A DNA stretch of 64,000 nucleotides, from assembly GCF_009914755.1 (NCBI RefSeq), contig NC_060936.1; one strand, given 5' to 3'. Under the pieces are notes generated by a model. That model saw only the letters and a list, made by a program, of their open reading frames with translations, made no database searches and had not been told where the DNA came from. Of the stretch, positions 16,992-48,322 are shown one piece after another. This DNA is from the human T2T-CHM13v2.0 reference genome, Homo sapiens. Made by a program: the position numbers and the translations under genes. Position 1 is the stretch's first letter. Each line of letters begins with the position of its first letter.

Positions 16992-18093
16992 GTGAGCCTC
17001 CCGACACAGCAGTGCTGGAAGGTGGAGTGCTTTTCTCACTGGGAGACAAAAAACTGCTCTATGTAAAAGGGCCTAAAATCTCTACAGAAAGACATTTCTG
17101 TGCGAAACTAAATGGGAAACATTTGATCTGTTTCTCTGGGTAGCCTGTTGTCTGGAAAAATGAAGTTGCTCAGAGTTACTGCCGGGTGTGTTGAAATCAC
17201 GAATGACCTACATTTTACTGAATATGTTGATCTCTCCAAAAATATCCTTGCCAATCCCAAACAGGAGGTGGGAAAGGGCATCTCGCCTTTCTCTATTCCA
17301 TTTAGGCCCAGTTCAGTCCAACTTAGTAAGGTCTACTATCATTCTCACCTGCAAAATGAGAGAAATAGAAGTTTCTACTTCACAGGTTTTTGCAAGGATA
17401 TTATGGGTTAATGCATACAAGGCACTTTATATGATACCTGGAACACAGTGATGTTATTGGAACCATAGGAGAGGCCAGAATGTGAGGGCCAGGATGAGGG
17501 GAAAAAGAAAGTATCGGCAGGGGAACAATACTCTGAGAACCTGGTTGTGGAAGGTGAAGAGAGGGTAAGGATCTTATCACCAGCCCAAACCAGGCCTCCC
17601 CCTAGGGGAGGCTTCCACCTGGTCTGCTTTTGAGGACCCTTTAGCCAAGTATCTGGCTAAAGGGGCCAAGTAGCAGCCCCTTTGCTAAGTCAGAGTTTGA
17701 AGGACAGTCTAGAGCCAGGTTGAACAAGTAACCTTCCACTGTGACGAAGCGATCTGCCATCATGGTCAGGCCAGAGAAACCCAGATAGCCTGTTCCCCTG
17801 CTCGGTAAATGACCTGAGGATGTTTTTCCTAAAGTCTGTCAATATCTTCTCTTTTCTCCTGCCTCCTATTCCCTTCCTTCCCCCTTTCCCTTGGAATGCC
17901 TACTGGTATTGAGCAGCAGGTCCTTGAAGTAAGTAGAGTTTGTTCCAGTGGGGTTTGGCATGCCTGTGTGTGACCATTTGTGTGCATGACTTGCCATTCA
18001 CCTGCCTCTGCCAGCCTCTGACTCCTTCACGTTTCCTGTCTTCCTCTTTCCTCACCCGTTCATTTTTTCTAGACCCTCATGAACCGGGTCGTC

Positions 18094-29608: not shown

Positions 29609-29752
29609 GGCTCCCGGAGACTTGATGATGACTCCTTAGAAGAACAGATAAGGCAGACCAGTGAGGACTCGAGAGCCCTAAGGGAGCTCATGGAGGGAGA
29701 GAGGGGTAAACTGAGGCAAAGCCTAGAAGAGCTGCAGCGACTCCACAGTCAG
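29609..29752 (+). CDS. BICDL1: BICDL1 144-nt in-frame (probably cassette) exon: GSRRLDDDSLEEQIRQTSEDSRALRELMEGERGKLRQSLEELQRLHSQ
   Basis: tcttttactgtcag| acceptor, CAG|gtgagc donor; 48 open codons, phase 0-0; the recalled 573-aa protein joins MEPT directly to VTLLSV, implying this exon can be skipped. Confidence 0.9.
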
Positions 29753-45112: not shown

Positions 45113-45233
45113 GAAGAATGCTGTGGAGCTGGAACTTGCCAAGTGCAGGATGGATATGATGTCTCTGAACAGCCAGTTGCTGGATGCCATTCAGCAGAAA
45201 CTGAACCTCTCGCAGCAGCTGGAAGCTTGGCAG
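45113..45233 (+). CDS. BICDL1: BICDL1 coding exon (121 nt, phase 2-0): KNAVELELAKCRMDMMSLNSQLLDAIQQKLNLSQQLEAWQ; BicD-type Rab-binding C-terminal coil
   Basis: tgttctcag| acceptor, CAG|gtaaac donor; AIQQKL matches the BicD/BICD2 cargo-binding motif (MAIQQKLALTQRLE). Confidence 0.97.
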
Positions 45234-46071
45234 GTAAACTGGAGCCTGAGATCCAGGGCGAGAGGAGACTCCAGGAGGAATCTCTGAACCCAGGCAGAGT
45301 GTAAGGAGAGTTTGCCACTGGAGGGTTCCATGTGACTGGGTGAACAGCACATCCCAGTCTTCACCTGGCAAGATCCAGAGCTCATGTCCCCTAGTCCTTG
45401 GGGAAGAATGCTTAAGGATGCTTTTGAGCGACAGTGCCCAGGCTGCTGCTGTCTGGAGATGTAGTGATCTCCAGACTTGGAATGGGGCCCCCTTTCAGCT
45501 GGTTGTCTGGGCTTTAAGCTGGAAAGAAACAACTGGTTAACATGGAGGCCCAGGAAGCTCAGTATAATTGCATGAAAATTCACAGCGGGATGCGGCTCAG
45601 CAACCCTCCTGCAGCCAGCAGCTGCTACCCTTCCCCTTCTCAAGGGCCAGCCTCCATTTTCCAAAGAGCACTGTGCTGGCACAGGCCCTGGGGAAGAGGA
45701 GTCAGTGGGTCCCTCTCTAGACCCACTGTTTTCAGGGTCCAGCATGGCTCCCCACTGGACTGGGCTGTGGCTGGCTGGGTTTTGTTCGTGAGGTTGAGGT
45801 AGCACAGTTTTAGGATATGGGTATAAACATTAATATTTCTCCCCAAGAATTCTCATCCAGACAGATGAAAAGCCGTCTGTGGCTTTACAAGGTAAGCCCC
45901 CCGTGGAGGGCAGGTTGTTGGTGACCATTCCTCCCAGGGCCCCATGGGGCTGGCAGCCAGAACACTGGCCCCACCGCAGGGTGCCCGTCCCTGGCTCCTT
46001 GGCTCCTGCATGGCAGCCAGCTGGCCGCGCCCTGGCTGACCGCTGCTCTCTCTCTTCTCTCCCGGCTACAG

Positions 46072-46180
46072 TTTGCTTCCTCAGGGCTTTTTACTATCTG
46101 GCTCCTTTGGTTTCTGATCTAGTGGCCTTTCTCAGTTCCCGTATCAACAGCTTTAGTTGTACACCCCTCCTGCCTTTGAG
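46072..46180 (+). other. BICDL1: Candidate alternative BICDL1 exon (109 nt) with in-frame stop: FASSGLFTIWLLWFLI* (TAG 46120-46122)
   Basis: Branch ggctgAc (A 46039), pyrimidine tract ctctctctcttctctccc, tacag| acceptor, GAG|gtgagc donor; no transcript evidence available here. Confidence 0.6.
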
Positions 46181-48160
46181 GTGAGCCTGAGCCCTACATC
46201 CCATCCACCGTCTCGCCCTGCCATTGCTGTGCTGCCCCGCCGCCTCCCCTCATGGCCCACTGTGTTCTGTGTGCTGGAGCCTGGCGTCATCTCTGTGCAG
46301 TGTGACATGCCCTCAAGTCCCAGCTCCCTCCTCCATCACAGTCGCGTCCAGTGAGCTCTTCAGCAGTGTGTGGCCCAGTGCTAACGGCTGGTGCCGTCTT
46401 CTCATAGATGGCTGTTCCATCCACTGAGGGACCAGCAGGCCTGGAATGATGAGCAGCGTGTGTCTGGGAAACTCTAAAGGGCGACCTGGACAGACCTGAT
46501 TGCTTAAAGTTAAAAAAATGAAGTTTTCAGTGTGCCAAACAAAACATTGGCAGCTTTGAAAGGTTGGTTTTTGAAAGACCCTTTAGCATTCCTACATTGG
46601 ATTTAGCGTAGATTTTACTGAGCACGTCGTAAGTGCAGGGCACTGTGCCAAGGATCATACACTGGACCCTTATAAGGAGGGACCGTGTGTTGGCAAATAC
46701 CTGGCACAGTGCCAGCTCTGAGGGGCAAGTGGAAAAGGGGATGGAAGAGAAGGGAAGAAGACAAGGGCAAGGAGAAGACCAGGAATGAGCTGAGTCTGAA
46801 AGACAGGGTTGAGAGAATAGGGAGGCTGGAGAGCAGGCCCTGAGCCAGAGCGCGTGAGGGGTCCACACTCACTGCTACCCCACGATGACTCAGGAAGGCC
46901 CCTTTGTTTCATGCTGAAACCTGCAGAGATATTAGAATGACACCCATGGGTGGGAGGGAGGAGGAGTGGACAAGCTGCTCAGATGGAGGGGCCCAGCCAG
47001 CCCAACTTCATGCCCTCATCTCATCAGTGGCTGCTCGGAACCAAAGAGGTCATCTGCCCTGGCCACAGGGAGCCTGCCCTGAACACAGGCCTCACCTGTC
47101 CTGTGCTCGGACACCACAGGCTGACTCACTCAGGGGTTTAGCCAGAAAAGCTTGGGGTCTTACCAGGATGCCGCAGAGCCTGCCAGGTTCAAGTCATGAA
47201 GGAATCGAGCAGACACATGTTACATTTACTGATGATGCTAATTACACAGGCTGCTCATATTTCTAAAGCAGGAGTTTTCAAACTTTGTTAGTGGCAGAAC
47301 TTTTGTCAAATGGAGTCTTACCCAGAGTCAGAATCTAGCCACCAAAATGGGAAGGGAGTGGAGCTGCCCTGTCCACAGGCTTCTCTATGGGAAAGGCTGC
47401 TGTTCTGTAAAACATGGTGGGGCGGGCTGTGGGGAGGAAGGCATTTTCTGGACCACATGAACGAATTCGAGTTGGGGGACGGTCCTACCCCAGTGAGGAA
47501 GCTGAAAGAAATGGGCCTGATTTGGTGCAGGACAGCCCCTGAAGACCGTGAGGCCCCTGGCCTCTGCCGCAGATGGGAGCCTCAGCAGCAGGGTCTAGGG
47601 CAGCACCCAGGGCATCCTTGCCACGTGAGGCTGCCGTTGGTGCCTGGGCATCAGTAGCTCAGGCTGGAATAATTGGAAAGGAAAAGGCAGGAGGAGCCCC
47701 TGAGGCCAGGCCATTGGGCTGGGGAGCTGTTAAGCTGAGGTGGCCCTAGGGCCTGCCGGGGCTGGGGGTGGCAAGCCAAACCGGAGGCACCAGCCAGGCC
47801 CACAGGACACAGGAGGCAGAGCCGTGAGGCCTGGTCAGAGCAGGTGGAGTGCTAGTGTGGAGACTGCAGGGAGAGACCACCCGAGCCATCAGCTGAGGAC
47901 TGTGGCGGCCCAGCAGGAGTAACACTGTTGAGGAGAACCCAGCCCAAGCCTGAGGAGGCTGGAGGTGCCATACGGCTCCTGCGTGCGCCTGGTGTCTTGC
48001 CCACGCTCACCGCTTTCTTGGTCAGGGCAGTCCCGGCTGCAGCCTCTCACTCATCACATTCTCATCTCTCATCTGTCTGATGTTCCCACCTCCCTGTCCA
48101 GCCCCAGGGTTAGGTGAGAGCAGCTACTCAGTCCTGGCCACTGTCCCCTCCCCTCTGCAG

Positions 48161-48322
48161 GATGACATGCACAGGGTCATTGACCGGCAGCTGATGGACA
48201 CGCACCTGAAAGAACGGAGCCAGCCGGCTGCTGCCCTCTGCAGGGGCCACAGCGCTGGGCGGGGGGATGAGCCCAGCATCGCTGAAGGCAAACGACTCTT
48301 CTCATTCTTCAGGAAAATTTAA
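48161..48322 (+). CDS. BICDL1: BICDL1 last coding exon: DDMHRVIDRQLMDTHLKERSQPAAALCRGHSAGRGDEPSIAEGKRLFSFFRKI*
   Basis: cccctctgcag| acceptor, phase 0; TAA at 48320-48322; matches the recalled BICDL1 C-terminus. Confidence 0.97.
   Translation, partial: DDMHRVIDRQLMDTHLKERSQPAAALCRGHSAGRGDEPSIAEGKRLFSFFRKI

What the first reader, a model, noticed from the sequence alone, without database searches (positions are those of the whole stretch)
46007..46186. Alternative exon that swaps the soluble C-terminus for a hydrophobic tail: tail-anchored dynein adaptor or poison exon
Seen: textbook branch point, pyrimidine tract, acceptor and GAG|gtgagc donor define a 109-nt exon. Spliced after 45233 it reads ...QQLE-AWQFASSGLFTIWLLWFLI*, i.e. 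19 uncharged terminal residues rich in F/W/L/I. The stop is 58 nt upstream of the donor, and TGCATG lies at 46007-46012 upstream of the branch point. Established: a single C-terminal hydrophobic segment defines tail-anchored proteins; KASH5 is a membrane-anchored dynein adaptor; the NMD boundary is ~50-55 nt; RBFOX bound upstream represses inclusion. Inference: either a Rab-independent, membrane-inserted BICDL1 isoform or an RBFOX-controlled NMD switch. It sits at the NMD boundary, so both are possible. It may already be annotated as a minor transcript.
Basis: partly seen in the sequence, partly recalled or inferred. Interest (0 to 1): 0.8.

Follow-up and report, generated by a model that had tools for sequence, protein, structure and literature searches.

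The report
Invariant hydrophobic-tail exon of BICDL1
An annotated but unstudied alternative exon of the dynein-adaptor gene BICDL1 replaces the protein's end with a 16-residue greasy tail that is almost unchanged from fish to humans, which suggests a membrane-bound form of the adaptor and not a mere decay switch.

Summary
Exon 46072-46180 (109 nt) has the stated acceptor and donor. After exon 9 it reads ...EAWQ|FASSGLFTIWLLWFLI*, and the stop lies 58 nt before the donor. The hub table already lists the exon, and a predicted human isoform X6 carries the tail.

The new result is conservation. All 24 database proteins found with the tail end in the identical 16 residues (mammals, a bird, turtles, a frog). 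Eighteen teleost entries differ only by I>V. Eleven read-through ORFs in another frame show the whole exon is nearly invariant in DNA, and likeness stops at both splice sites. The few nucleotide changes I could infer in the tail-coding part are silent or conservative in the tail frame.

The tail is far more conserved than the canonical C-terminus (0.97 against 0.53 identity to human). The isoform keeps the whole CC3 cargo-binding homologue, including the Rab6-essential lysine, so "Rab-independent" is not supported. The TGCATG is at chance density and absent in 6 of 6 other sequences.

Best reading (0.45): a translated, membrane-binding BICDL1 isoform whose cassette mRNA also meets the NMD rule. 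A pure poison exon (0.25) and a degron or interface tail (0.2) remain open. I found no paper on it.

The parts
45113..45233 (+). BICDL1 coding exon before the alternative exon. It encodes the end of the CC3 cargo-binding coiled coil (...QQKLNLSQQLEAWQ). The codon of the Rab6-essential lysine is at 45198-45200.
   Evidence: Searches give the translation and phase. One search aligns mouse BICDR1 chain residue 440 to query residue 1, so K512 is the K of QQKLNL. (Schlager 2010, passages read) shows K512M abolishes Rab6 binding.
46007..46012 (+). TGCATG hexamer, 60-65 nt upstream of the acceptor.
   Evidence: present, but 33 matches in the window against 48.6 expected from shuffles; absent in 6 of 6 read-through ORFs from other animals.
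46036..46040 (+). Candidate branch point CTGAC, with the A at 46039.
   Evidence: The peptide W-L-T, as TGG CTG ACN would give, recurs upstream of the exon in 6 of 17 read-through ORFs (P0001, P0129, P0131, P0134, P0135, P0136). I read this by eye.
46041..46071 (+). Polypyrimidine tract and acceptor AG (46070-46071).
   Evidence: 87% pyrimidine in the 23 nt before the AG. All 6 frame-0 read-through ORFs read L-Q (YTN CAG) directly before the tail.
46072..46180 (+). Alternative 109-nt exon, listed in the hub table under exons of other transcripts.
   Evidence: single copy; 7 of 11 unnamed read-through ORFs are identical to human over all 36 codons of the +2 frame. Likeness ends at the acceptor and at the donor.
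46072..46119 (+). Sixteen codons for the tail FASSGLFTIWLLWFLI.
   Evidence: Identical in 24 of 24 hits, and I>V in 18 teleost entries. In the AlphaFold2 model the tail continues the CC3 helix with pLDDT 90-93.
46120..46122 (+). TAG stop of the tail isoform, 58 nt before the donor. In several teleost gene models its AG serves as an internal acceptor.
   Evidence: Searches show teleost models reading EAWQ|WPFS...ALE|DDMH.
46123..46180 (+). Post-stop part of the exon (58 nt). It is conserved, but less so than the tail part.
   Evidence: 10 differing +2 codons of 220 here, against 2 of 176 in the tail part.
46181..46186 (+). Donor gtgagc.
   Evidence: P0138 reads past the donor and shows no likeness to human beyond it.
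48161..48322 (+). Canonical last coding part (53 aa, DDMHRVIDRQLMD...KRLFSFFRKI, plus stop), which the tail replaces.
   Evidence: mean identity to human is 0.53 over 67 canonical proteins, against 0.97 for the tail over 36.

Best explanation
Exon 46072-46180 is an ancient alternative penultimate exon of BICDL1, at least as old as bony vertebrates. Its first 48 nt are translated.

The product keeps the dynein/dynactin- and KIF1C-binding N-terminal part. It also keeps the whole CC3 cargo-binding coiled coil, including the Rab6-essential lysine. It loses the 53-residue post-CC3 end and instead carries an invariant, uncharged 16-residue helix rich in Trp, Phe and Leu directly after CC3.

I infer that this helix holds the adaptor on a membrane. 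It would do so either as a short tail-anchor (an ER/Golgi type with no basic residues after it) or as a deeply embedded interfacial anchor, one per chain of the dimer.

The cassette mRNA also meets the NMD rule (stop 58 nt before the last junction), so output is probably kept low or regulated.

Shown: exon anatomy, the tail sequence, its conservation, retention of CC3. Inferred: translation in vivo, membrane binding, topology, NMD sensitivity.
For: 1. Invariance. All 24 of 24 proteins found with the tail end in FASSGLFTIWLLWFLI. The named ones are human, chimpanzee, three bats, two cats, rat (two entries), Arvicanthis, a mole, a parrot, two sea turtles and a frog. Eighteen teleost entries end in FASSGLFTVWLLWFLI.

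2. Relative conservation. Tail identity to human averages 0.97 over 36 proteins, against 0.88-0.90 for exon 9 and 0.53 for the canonical C-terminus over 67 proteins.

3. Frame-specific change. I inferred seven nucleotide changes unambiguously from other-frame models and ORFs:
- six are silent in the tail frame, including a double change CTT>TTG that keeps Leu;
- one gives I>V.
Only 35 of 144 possible single changes are silent, so P(>=6 of 7 silent) = 1.1e-3.

4. The tail part varies less than the post-stop part of the same exon: 2 of 176 differing +2 codons against 10 of 220.

5. Conservation stops at both splice sites. The constraint therefore acts on the mature mRNA or the protein, not on an intronic element.

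6. Spliced full-length ORFs with the EAWQ|FASS junction occur in unnamed assembled records (P0004, P0006, P0018, P0032). In some fish the tail form is the only or the X1 model.

7. Hydrophobicity (scales recalled):
- the tail is the only hydrophobic window in P0011 (KD 16-residue mean 1.87, next best 1.11);
- the Wimley-White interfacial sum is -9.4 kcal/mol, with a low amphipathic moment of 0.13;
- it ranks in the top 5 of 2243 phase-0 intronic readings.

8. AlphaFold2 models one continuous helix over residues 2-75, with pLDDT 90-93 across the tail.

9. CC3 is kept. BICD2, BICD1 and fly BicD CC3 crystal constructs align up to 1-2 residues past EAWQ, and K512 lies in exon 9.
Against: 1. DNA conservation exceeds what the peptide needs. 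In 9 of 11 +2-frame ORFs no codon of the tail part differs from human. In 7 of 11 the whole exon, including the 58 nt after the stop, is identical. That points to an RNA-level constraint as well.

2. The stop is 58 nt before the junction in human and, with no indels, in 11 of 11 ORFs. It would be 60-69 nt in four teleost models. The cassette mRNA is therefore a predicted NMD target everywhere.

3. The segment is short for a bilayer span. The 19-residue KD mean is 1.44, below the classical 1.6, and the Hessa sum is -0.71 for 16 residues but +2.06 for 19 (scales and threshold recalled).

4. Simple membrane anchors usually tolerate L/I/V/F swaps, so total invariance is not explained by anchoring alone.

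5. Hydrophobic C-tails are commonly captured by BAG6 for degradation (abstract read).

6. I saw no expression level, ribosome or protein data. I could not establish how the human tail-coding mRNA ends.

7. The silent-site inference rests on three gene models and two ORFs. It assumes single-step changes, and for teleosts it assumes that the tail seen in related species is present.
Confidence: 0.45

Rival explanations
1. Pure regulatory poison exon (AS-NMD). Inclusion places a stop more than 55 nt before the last junction, the mRNA is degraded, and BICDL1 output falls. The peptide has no role, and its conservation is a by-product of nucleotide-level constraint on splicing control.
For: - The stop is 58 nt before the donor, and the distance is unchanged in 11 of 11 ORFs.
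- DNA is near-invariant, including silent sites and the post-stop 58 nt, in 7 of 11 ORFs.
- Very highly conserved poison exons are a known class (search listing and abstract starts only).
- The Mol Vis 2026 paper reports a 75% fall in Bicdl1 transcript in a splice-site (frameshift) mutant and attributes it to NMD (passages).
Against: - Inferred changes are silent or conservative in the tail frame (6 of 7 silent, P about 1e-3; CTT>TTG keeps Leu).
- The tail part is more constrained than the rest of the exon.
- Conservation ends sharply at the splice sites, with no conserved intronic flanks.
- The tail is an extreme hydrophobic outlier, which a poison exon does not need.
- BICDL1 is not a splicing factor with a known autoregulatory loop (my knowledge).
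Confidence: 0.25
2. The tail is translated and selected, but not as a membrane anchor. It acts either as a built-in C-terminal hydrophobic degron (BAG6/proteasome triage) that makes the isoform short-lived, or as a specific protein-protein or autoinhibitory interface packed against a partner.
For: - The Kesner et al. preprint abstract states that hydrophobic C-terminal tails are captured by BAG6 for degradation or membrane targeting.
- Total invariance fits a specific interface better than a generic anchor.
- The segment is short for a bilayer span.
Against: - A degron does not need an invariant sequence.
- The amphipathic moment is low (0.13) and the Wimley-White interfacial sum is -9.4 kcal/mol, which favour lipid over a one-sided protein interface (recalled scales).
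- The same abstract gives membrane targeting as the alternative BAG6 outcome.
Confidence: 0.2
3. RBFOX-controlled switch. RBFOX bound at the upstream TGCATG represses inclusion of the exon.
For: TGCATG at 46007-46012, 60-65 nt upstream of the acceptor.
Against: - It is one copy only.
- The hexamer is not enriched in the window (33 matches against 48.6 +/- 8.2 in shuffles), and about 0.02 are expected in 65 nt.
- It is absent in all three registers from the 40 codons upstream in 6 of 6 read-through ORFs of other animals.
- No paper among the 7 that hold both 'Bicdl1' and 'alternative splicing' concerns this exon, judging by title and abstract start.
Confidence: 0.08
4. Annotation noise: a weak cryptic exon whose hydrophobic reading is only the usual product of T-rich non-coding sequence.
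For: - The coding part is T-rich (23 of 48 nt).
- Non-coding readings often give hydrophobic tails (abstract).
Against: - Identical tail in 24 of 24 tetrapod-type hits and one conservative change in 18 teleost entries.
- Exon-confined DNA conservation.
- Top 5 of 2243 in the null scan.
Confidence: 0.02

Closest known systems
Tail-anchored membrane proteins, including soluble/anchored isoform pairs made by alternative last exons (class recalled, no example checked here)
   Same: A single uncharged hydrophobic helix at the extreme C-terminus of an otherwise hydrophilic cytosolic protein, with no other hydrophobic window. Splicing switches it on and off.
   Different: - It has only 16 strictly hydrophobic or uncharged residues (19 with AWQ), no residues after it, and borderline insertion scores.
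- It is invariant over the whole vertebrate sample, which ordinary anchors are not.
- Membrane insertion is untested.
KASH5, a membrane-anchored dynein activating adaptor
   Same: It would be a coiled-coil dynein adaptor fixed to a membrane by its own C-terminus instead of through a GTPase.
   Different: - I ran no comparison with KASH5.
- BICDL1's tail has no luminal KASH-type peptide.
- It follows directly on an intact Rab6-binding CC3, so anchoring would add to Rab binding, not replace it.
Ultraconserved poison exons of SR-protein and other splicing-factor genes (listing and abstract starts only)
   Same: An alternative exon with an in-frame stop more than 50-55 nt before the next junction. 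It is near-invariant in DNA across amniotes, including silent sites and the non-coding part.
   Different: - The host gene is a motor adaptor, not a splicing regulator.
- Conservation does not spread into the introns.
- Changes respect one reading frame.
- The encoded peptide is an extreme hydrophobic outlier.
BICD1/BICD2/BicD CC3 cargo-binding domain (PDB 4ytd, 6ofp, 4bl6)
   Same: BICDL1 residues up to EAWQ align with the crystallised CC3 constructs, including the ...AIQQKL... lysine motif. Schlager 2010 shows the lysine is needed for Rab6 binding.
   Different: In the tail isoform CC3 is followed at once by a hydrophobic helix instead of the polar DDMHRVIDRQLMD...KRLFSFFRKI end. The matches are weak (E 0.005-0.4).
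BAG6-captured hydrophobic C-tails of non-canonical translation products (Kesner et al. preprint, abstract read)
   Same: A hydrophobic C-terminal tail encoded by T-rich sequence entered through alternative processing. The same triage complex can degrade such products or send them to membranes.
   Different: Those tails are young and unconserved. This one has been fixed since before the fish-tetrapod split.

Membership tests
Tail-anchored membrane protein | Single hydrophobic segment at the extreme C-terminus | tested here: met
   The last 16 residues are uncharged, with a KD mean of 1.87. With AWQ, 19 residues are uncharged (scale recalled).
Tail-anchored membrane protein | Segment long and hydrophobic enough to span a bilayer | tested here: inconclusive
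   Helix length would be 16-19 residues. The KD 19-residue mean is 1.44 (the classical cut-off of 1.6 is recalled). The Hessa sum is -0.71 for 16 residues and +2.06 for 19. AlphaFold2 models a helix with pLDDT 90-93. No dedicated TM predictor was available.
Tail-anchored membrane protein | No other transmembrane segment or signal peptide; the rest of the protein is cytosolic | tested here: met
   KD scan of P0011: the next best 16-residue window scores 1.11 and lies in the Ala-rich N-terminus. No signal-peptide predictor was run.
Tail-anchored membrane protein | Post-translational insertion (GET/TRC40, EMC) and carbonate-resistant membrane integration | not testable with these tools
   Needs cell biology.
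Poison exon (AS-NMD) | Alternative exon that introduces an in-frame stop | tested here: met
   TAG at 46120-46122 in phase 0.
Poison exon (AS-NMD) | Stop more than 50-55 nt upstream of a downstream exon junction | tested here: met
   The distance is 58 nt, just above the boundary. There are no indels in 11 of 11 +2-frame ORFs. It would be 60-69 nt in four teleost models.
Poison exon (AS-NMD) | Inclusion isoform stabilised when NMD is blocked | not testable with these tools
   No expression data are available here.
Poison exon (AS-NMD) | Constraint on the nucleotide sequence without regard to reading frame | tested here: not met
   DNA is highly constrained, but 6 of 7 inferred changes are silent in frame 0 and 1 is conservative (P 1.1e-3). 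The tail part is also more constrained than the post-stop part.
RBFOX-regulated exon | (U)GCAUG close to the exon | tested here: met
   TGCATG at 46007-46012.
RBFOX-regulated exon | Motif conserved or enriched above chance | tested here: not met
   The window has 33 matches against 48.6 +/- 8.2 in shuffles. The motif is absent in 6 of 6 read-through ORFs of other animals within 40 codons upstream.
RBFOX-regulated exon | RBFOX binding (CLIP) and a splicing response to RBFOX loss | not testable with these tools
   No CLIP or knockdown data are available here.
BICD-family Rab6 effector (CC3 cargo-binding coiled coil) | CC3 homologue with the essential lysine present in the isoform | tested here: met
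   6ofp, 4ytd and 4bl6 align up to 1-2 residues past EAWQ, and K512 is the K of QQKLNL in exon 9. K512M abolishes Rab6 binding.
BICD-family Rab6 effector (CC3 cargo-binding coiled coil) | GTP-dependent Rab6 binding by this isoform | not testable with these tools
   The only construct reported as tested was residues 382-577 with the canonical end.
Ultraconserved element in the strict sense (at least 200 bp identical in human, mouse and rat; definition recalled) | Length of the invariant block | tested here: not met
   The conserved block is the 109-nt exon, and likeness ends at both splice sites.

The most novel reading that the evidence does not exclude
Vertebrates have kept, since before the fish-tetrapod split, a second form of the two-dynein adaptor BICDL1. 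This form is itself an integral or deeply embedded membrane protein. An invariant 16-residue helix, placed directly after an intact Rab6-binding coiled coil, fixes the adaptor dimer to ER/Golgi-derived membranes. Motor recruitment there would no longer depend only on Rab6-GTP. The same exon, through its stop 58 nt before the junction, ties the amount of this form to NMD.
Probability: 0.35. Interest if true: 0.8.

Novelty: new member of a known kind. Interest (0 to 1): 0.6.

Why it matters
Activating adaptors are thought to reach cargo through small GTPases or receptor proteins. BICDL1 is the model adaptor that recruits two dyneins, and it also binds KIF1C.

A constitutively membrane-held isoform would be a different way to load motors on secretory carriers. 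Its tail is better conserved than the Rab6-binding site itself. Work with the canonical cDNA would miss it.

If the exon instead acts only through NMD, it would be a deeply conserved poison exon in a gene that is not a splicing factor.

Either way it is a cheap, well-defined target. It is one exon, 16 codons, and clear assays exist for both readings.

Tried and rejected
- Repeat or transposon origin: the 191 nt around the exon match only themselves in the window's own genome.
- Paralogous tail elsewhere in the genome (for example BICDL2 or BICD1/2): a six-frame search found only the locus itself.
- DNA of other vertebrates for a direct codon test: a degenerate back-translated pattern found 0 stretches in genome contigs and 0 in viral contigs. 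I therefore inferred DNA indirectly from proteins read in two frames.
- Known RNA family: nothing near gathering scores. The best hits were mir-596 at 25.7 bits against 80 and TP73-AS1 at 18.2 bits against 75.
- Conserved RNA structure: the exon alone gives z +0.47 and the exon with flanks z +1.46, no better than shuffles.
- Pfam boundaries of the C-terminal domain: the local Pfam copy gave no BICDL1 C-terminal family. I used PDB alignments instead.
- Poly(A) signal that would give an NMD-immune tail mRNA: the only listed hexamer in 46181-46700 is AATGAA at 46517. The annotated ends 46398/46399 are not followed by GT. This stays unresolved.
- Literature: no paper on this exon or tail turned up. 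The tail peptide string occurs in 0 papers. BICDL1/CCDC64 is absent from the held supplements of two poison-exon papers; other supplements and subscription journals were not searchable.
- Earlier findings of this scan were not open to the session.
- The search was badly designed: it was flooded by RBFOX papers and gave nothing usable.
Full report
**Observation.**
- Exon 9 (45113-45233) ends on a complete codon, ...CAG CAG CTG GAA GCT TGG CAG|gtaaac.
- The alternative exon starts after ...ctctcttctctcccggctacag| at 46072 and ends GAG|gtgagc at 46180, a length of 109 nt.
- In phase 0 it reads FASSGLFTIWLLWFLI and then TAG (46120-46122), 58 nt before the donor.
- A CTGAC lies at 46036-46040 and a TGCATG at 46007-46012.
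- The canonical last exon (48161-48322) would instead add 53 residues, DDMHRVIDRQLMD...KRLFSFFRKI.
- The hub table already lists 46072-46180 among exons of other transcripts. A predicted human protein, 'isoform X6' (P0011), carries the tail.

**Chance.** I read every AG in the BICDL1 introns of the window in phase 0. The tail is therefore an outlier even for T-rich intron sequence.

The TGCATG is not an outlier. The window has 33 matches on both strands against 48.6 +/- 8.2 in shuffles, and 17 on the + strand. The exon is single copy in the genome and no similar tail is encoded elsewhere in it.

**Conservation of the peptide.** I searched the large protein collection with the 40 in-frame codons that end at the stop. 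The search returned 24 proteins among 74 candidates, and all 24 end in the identical 16 residues.
- Eighteen carry the spliced EAWQ|FASS junction. The named ones are human, chimpanzee, Rousettus, Pipistrellus, Rhynchonycteris, lynx, tiger, rat (two entries), Arvicanthis, Condylura, the parrot Guaruba, two sea turtles and the frog Rhinophrynus. Three more are unnamed assembled records (P0004, P0006, P0018).
- Six are mechanical read-through ORFs, whose upstream parts diverge right before L-Q, the acceptor.

A second search used the last 48 residues of the frog protein. It gave 847 hits among 848 candidates, of which 120 were listed. All 34 hits at 80 bits or more carry the tail, and 18 teleost entries (icefish, Aplochiton, carps, catfishes, Lates, Acanthochromis and others) end in FASSGLFTVWLLWFLI.

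Of the 128 stored proteins, 24 have the I form, 18 the V form, 66 the canonical EAWQ|DDMH junction and 20 something else. Identity to human is 0.97 for the tail (36 proteins), 0.88-0.90 for exon 9 and 0.53 for the canonical end (67 proteins). The sample is what the search listed, is clustered at 90% identity, and is rich in frogs and fish. Divergence times are not from any call.

**Conservation of the DNA.** No vertebrate DNA could be fetched, so I used proteins that read the same exon in another frame. The +2 frame is open over 45834-46181 in human. A third search with its last 40 codons found 11 unnamed read-through ORFs.
- Seven are identical to human over all 36 codons of the exon.
- Over the tail part, 2 of 176 codons differ. 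Over the post-stop part, 10 of 220 differ.
- Upstream of the acceptor the ORFs diverge within about ten codons.
- P0138 reads past the donor and shows no likeness beyond it.

The exon is therefore close to invariant in DNA in these animals, silent positions included, and the constraint is confined to the exon.

**Frame preference.** One of the two tetrapod differences can only be ATC>ATA, which is silent for Ile. The other is ambiguous.

Three teleost gene models (Channa P0047, Oryzias P0061, Labeo P0052) read the exon in +2. All three are compatible with the teleost tail in frame 0. This fixes 53-59 of the first 63 nt, with 5-6 differences from human.

The unambiguous changes are nt 18 T>G, nt 21 T>C, nt 27 C>G and C>A, nt 34 C>T together with nt 36 T>G (CTT>TTG, still Leu), and nt 25 A>G (I>V). 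Six are silent and one is conservative. Only 35 of 144 possible changes are silent, so P(>=6 of 7 silent) = 1.1e-3.

There are caveats. The models are predictions, single-step changes are assumed, and the teleost tail was seen in related species, not in the same ones.

The first 13 nt after the stop are fixed in both frames from human to teleosts. This shows an RNA-level constraint, or another coding use, in addition to the peptide constraint.

**What the isoform keeps and loses.** Mouse BICDR1 binds Rab6 through residues 382-577, and K512M abolishes binding (passages of Schlager 2010). The PDB alignment places chain residue 440 at VTLLSVEM, so K512 is the K of QQKLNLSQ in exon 9 (window 45198-45200). 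This is 11 residues before the junction.

The crystallised CC3 constructs of BICD2 (6ofp), BICD1 (4ytd) and fly BicD (4bl6) align to BICDL1 up to 1-2 residues past EAWQ, near the ends of those constructs (E 0.005-0.4). The tail isoform thus keeps the whole CC3 homologue and loses only the post-CC3 53 residues. 'Rab-independent' is not supported. Whether Rab6 still binds is untested.

**The tail as a physical object.** It is the only hydrophobic window of P0011 (KD mean 1.87 over 16 residues; next best 1.11). Its Wimley-White interfacial sum is -9.4 kcal/mol and its amphipathic moment is low at 0.13 (recalled scales).

AlphaFold2 with a 25-sequence alignment models residues 2-75 of P0005 as one helix, with pLDDT 90-93 over the tail. 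A long single helix is an easy prediction, so this is weak support.

As a bilayer span it is short: 16 residues, or 19 with AWQ, where the scores become borderline. Strong membrane partitioning therefore looks robust, but transmembrane topology does not.

**RNA-level alternatives.** No Rfam family comes near threshold, and the exon folds no better than shuffles (z +0.47 and +1.46). The stop-to-junction distance of 58 nt meets the 50-55 nt rule (established knowledge) and shows no indel in 11 of 11 ORFs.

I could not tell how the human tail-coding mRNA ends.
- The annotated ends 46398/46399 are not followed by GT.
- Position 46408 follows an AG and 46562 precedes a GT.
- No usual poly(A) hexamer lies nearby.
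- The three table entries may be one longer exon split by an alignment gap. That is my guess.

**RBFOX.** There is one hexamer at chance density. It is absent in all three registers from the 40 codons upstream in 6 of 6 frame-0 read-through ORFs.

**Literature.**
- 25 papers hold both BICDL1 and 'isoform'. The Mol Vis 2026 paper (passages read) only notes that databases list several isoforms.
- 7 papers hold both Bicdl1 and 'alternative splicing'. By title and abstract start, none concerns this exon.
- Among the 25 papers listed (of 843 holding at least two of the six terms), only the Mol Vis 2026 paper contains a BICDL1/CCDC64 term, and it co-occurs there only with 'nonsense-mediated'.
- The peptide string occurs in 0 papers.
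- Two poison-exon papers have no BICDL1 entry in their held supplements.
- Subscription journals and most supplements were not searchable.
- The Kesner et al. preprint (abstract read) states that hydrophobic C-tails are captured by BAG6 for degradation or for membrane targeting.

**Verdict.** The exon is real and annotated, so the bare observation is not new. What this work adds:
- the tail is essentially invariant across the sampled vertebrates;
- the constraint is confined to the exon and respects the tail's reading frame;
- the isoform retains the Rab6-binding coiled coil.

I rate the readings as follows:
- a translated, membrane-binding isoform whose mRNA is also NMD-prone: 0.45;
- a pure poison exon: 0.25;
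- a translated tail acting as a degron or interface: 0.20;
- RBFOX control: 0.08;
- annotation noise: 0.02.

Noticed in passing
window 46120-46180 (internal AG at 46121-46122): Several teleost gene models (P0045, P0046, P0048, P0054, P0057, P0124) read EAWQ|WPFS...PPALE|DDMHRVID. This uses the AG of the tail's TAG stop as an acceptor and adds 20-23 residues in frame. Three of the six are flagged LOW QUALITY. In human the same piece is 58 nt, so it would shift the frame and stop at TGA 46177-46179. The 23 nt before this AG are 74% pyrimidine.
   Followed up: partly
window 46398-46408 and 46562: The table's exon ends 46398/46399 are not followed by GT. Position 46408 follows an AG (tctcatag|A) and 46562 precedes GT. 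No usual poly(A) hexamer lies in 46181-46700 except AATGAA at 46517. The entries 46072-46398/9 and 46408-46562 may be one long exon split by a small alignment gap. In that case the stop would lie about 440 nt before the junction.
   Followed up: partly
window 29609-29752 and 17917-17928: The predicted human tail isoform X6 (P0011) skips the 144-nt exon encoding SRRLDDDSLEEQ...LHSQ and includes the 12-nt microexon (QVLE). Tail isoforms of cats, rodents, turtles and fish include the 144-nt exon. The tail therefore combines with several upstream splice choices.
   Followed up: partly
window 45834-46181, + strand, frame +2: An open frame of 116 codons runs through the exon and its upstream intron. 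The protein collection holds 11 mechanical ORFs of this frame from other animals. Their differences from human are amino-acid changing in this frame, so I see no sign that it is a gene. It served only to recover DNA information.
   Followed up: yes
window 46033-46041: The branch-point region TGGCTGAC appears as the peptide W-L-T in 6 of 17 read-through ORFs of other animals (both frames, read by eye). This suggests the branch point is kept in mammals, while the TGCATG 25 nt further upstream is not.
   Followed up: partly
P0043 (Ameiurus melas), P0052 (Labeo rohita): Some fish models join parts of the tail exon to the canonical end in odd ways (for example EAWQFASSGLFTTLPALEDDILRV...). They look like ab initio artefacts. 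I left them out of the tail counts and placed them in class 'other' (20 of 128).
   Followed up: no
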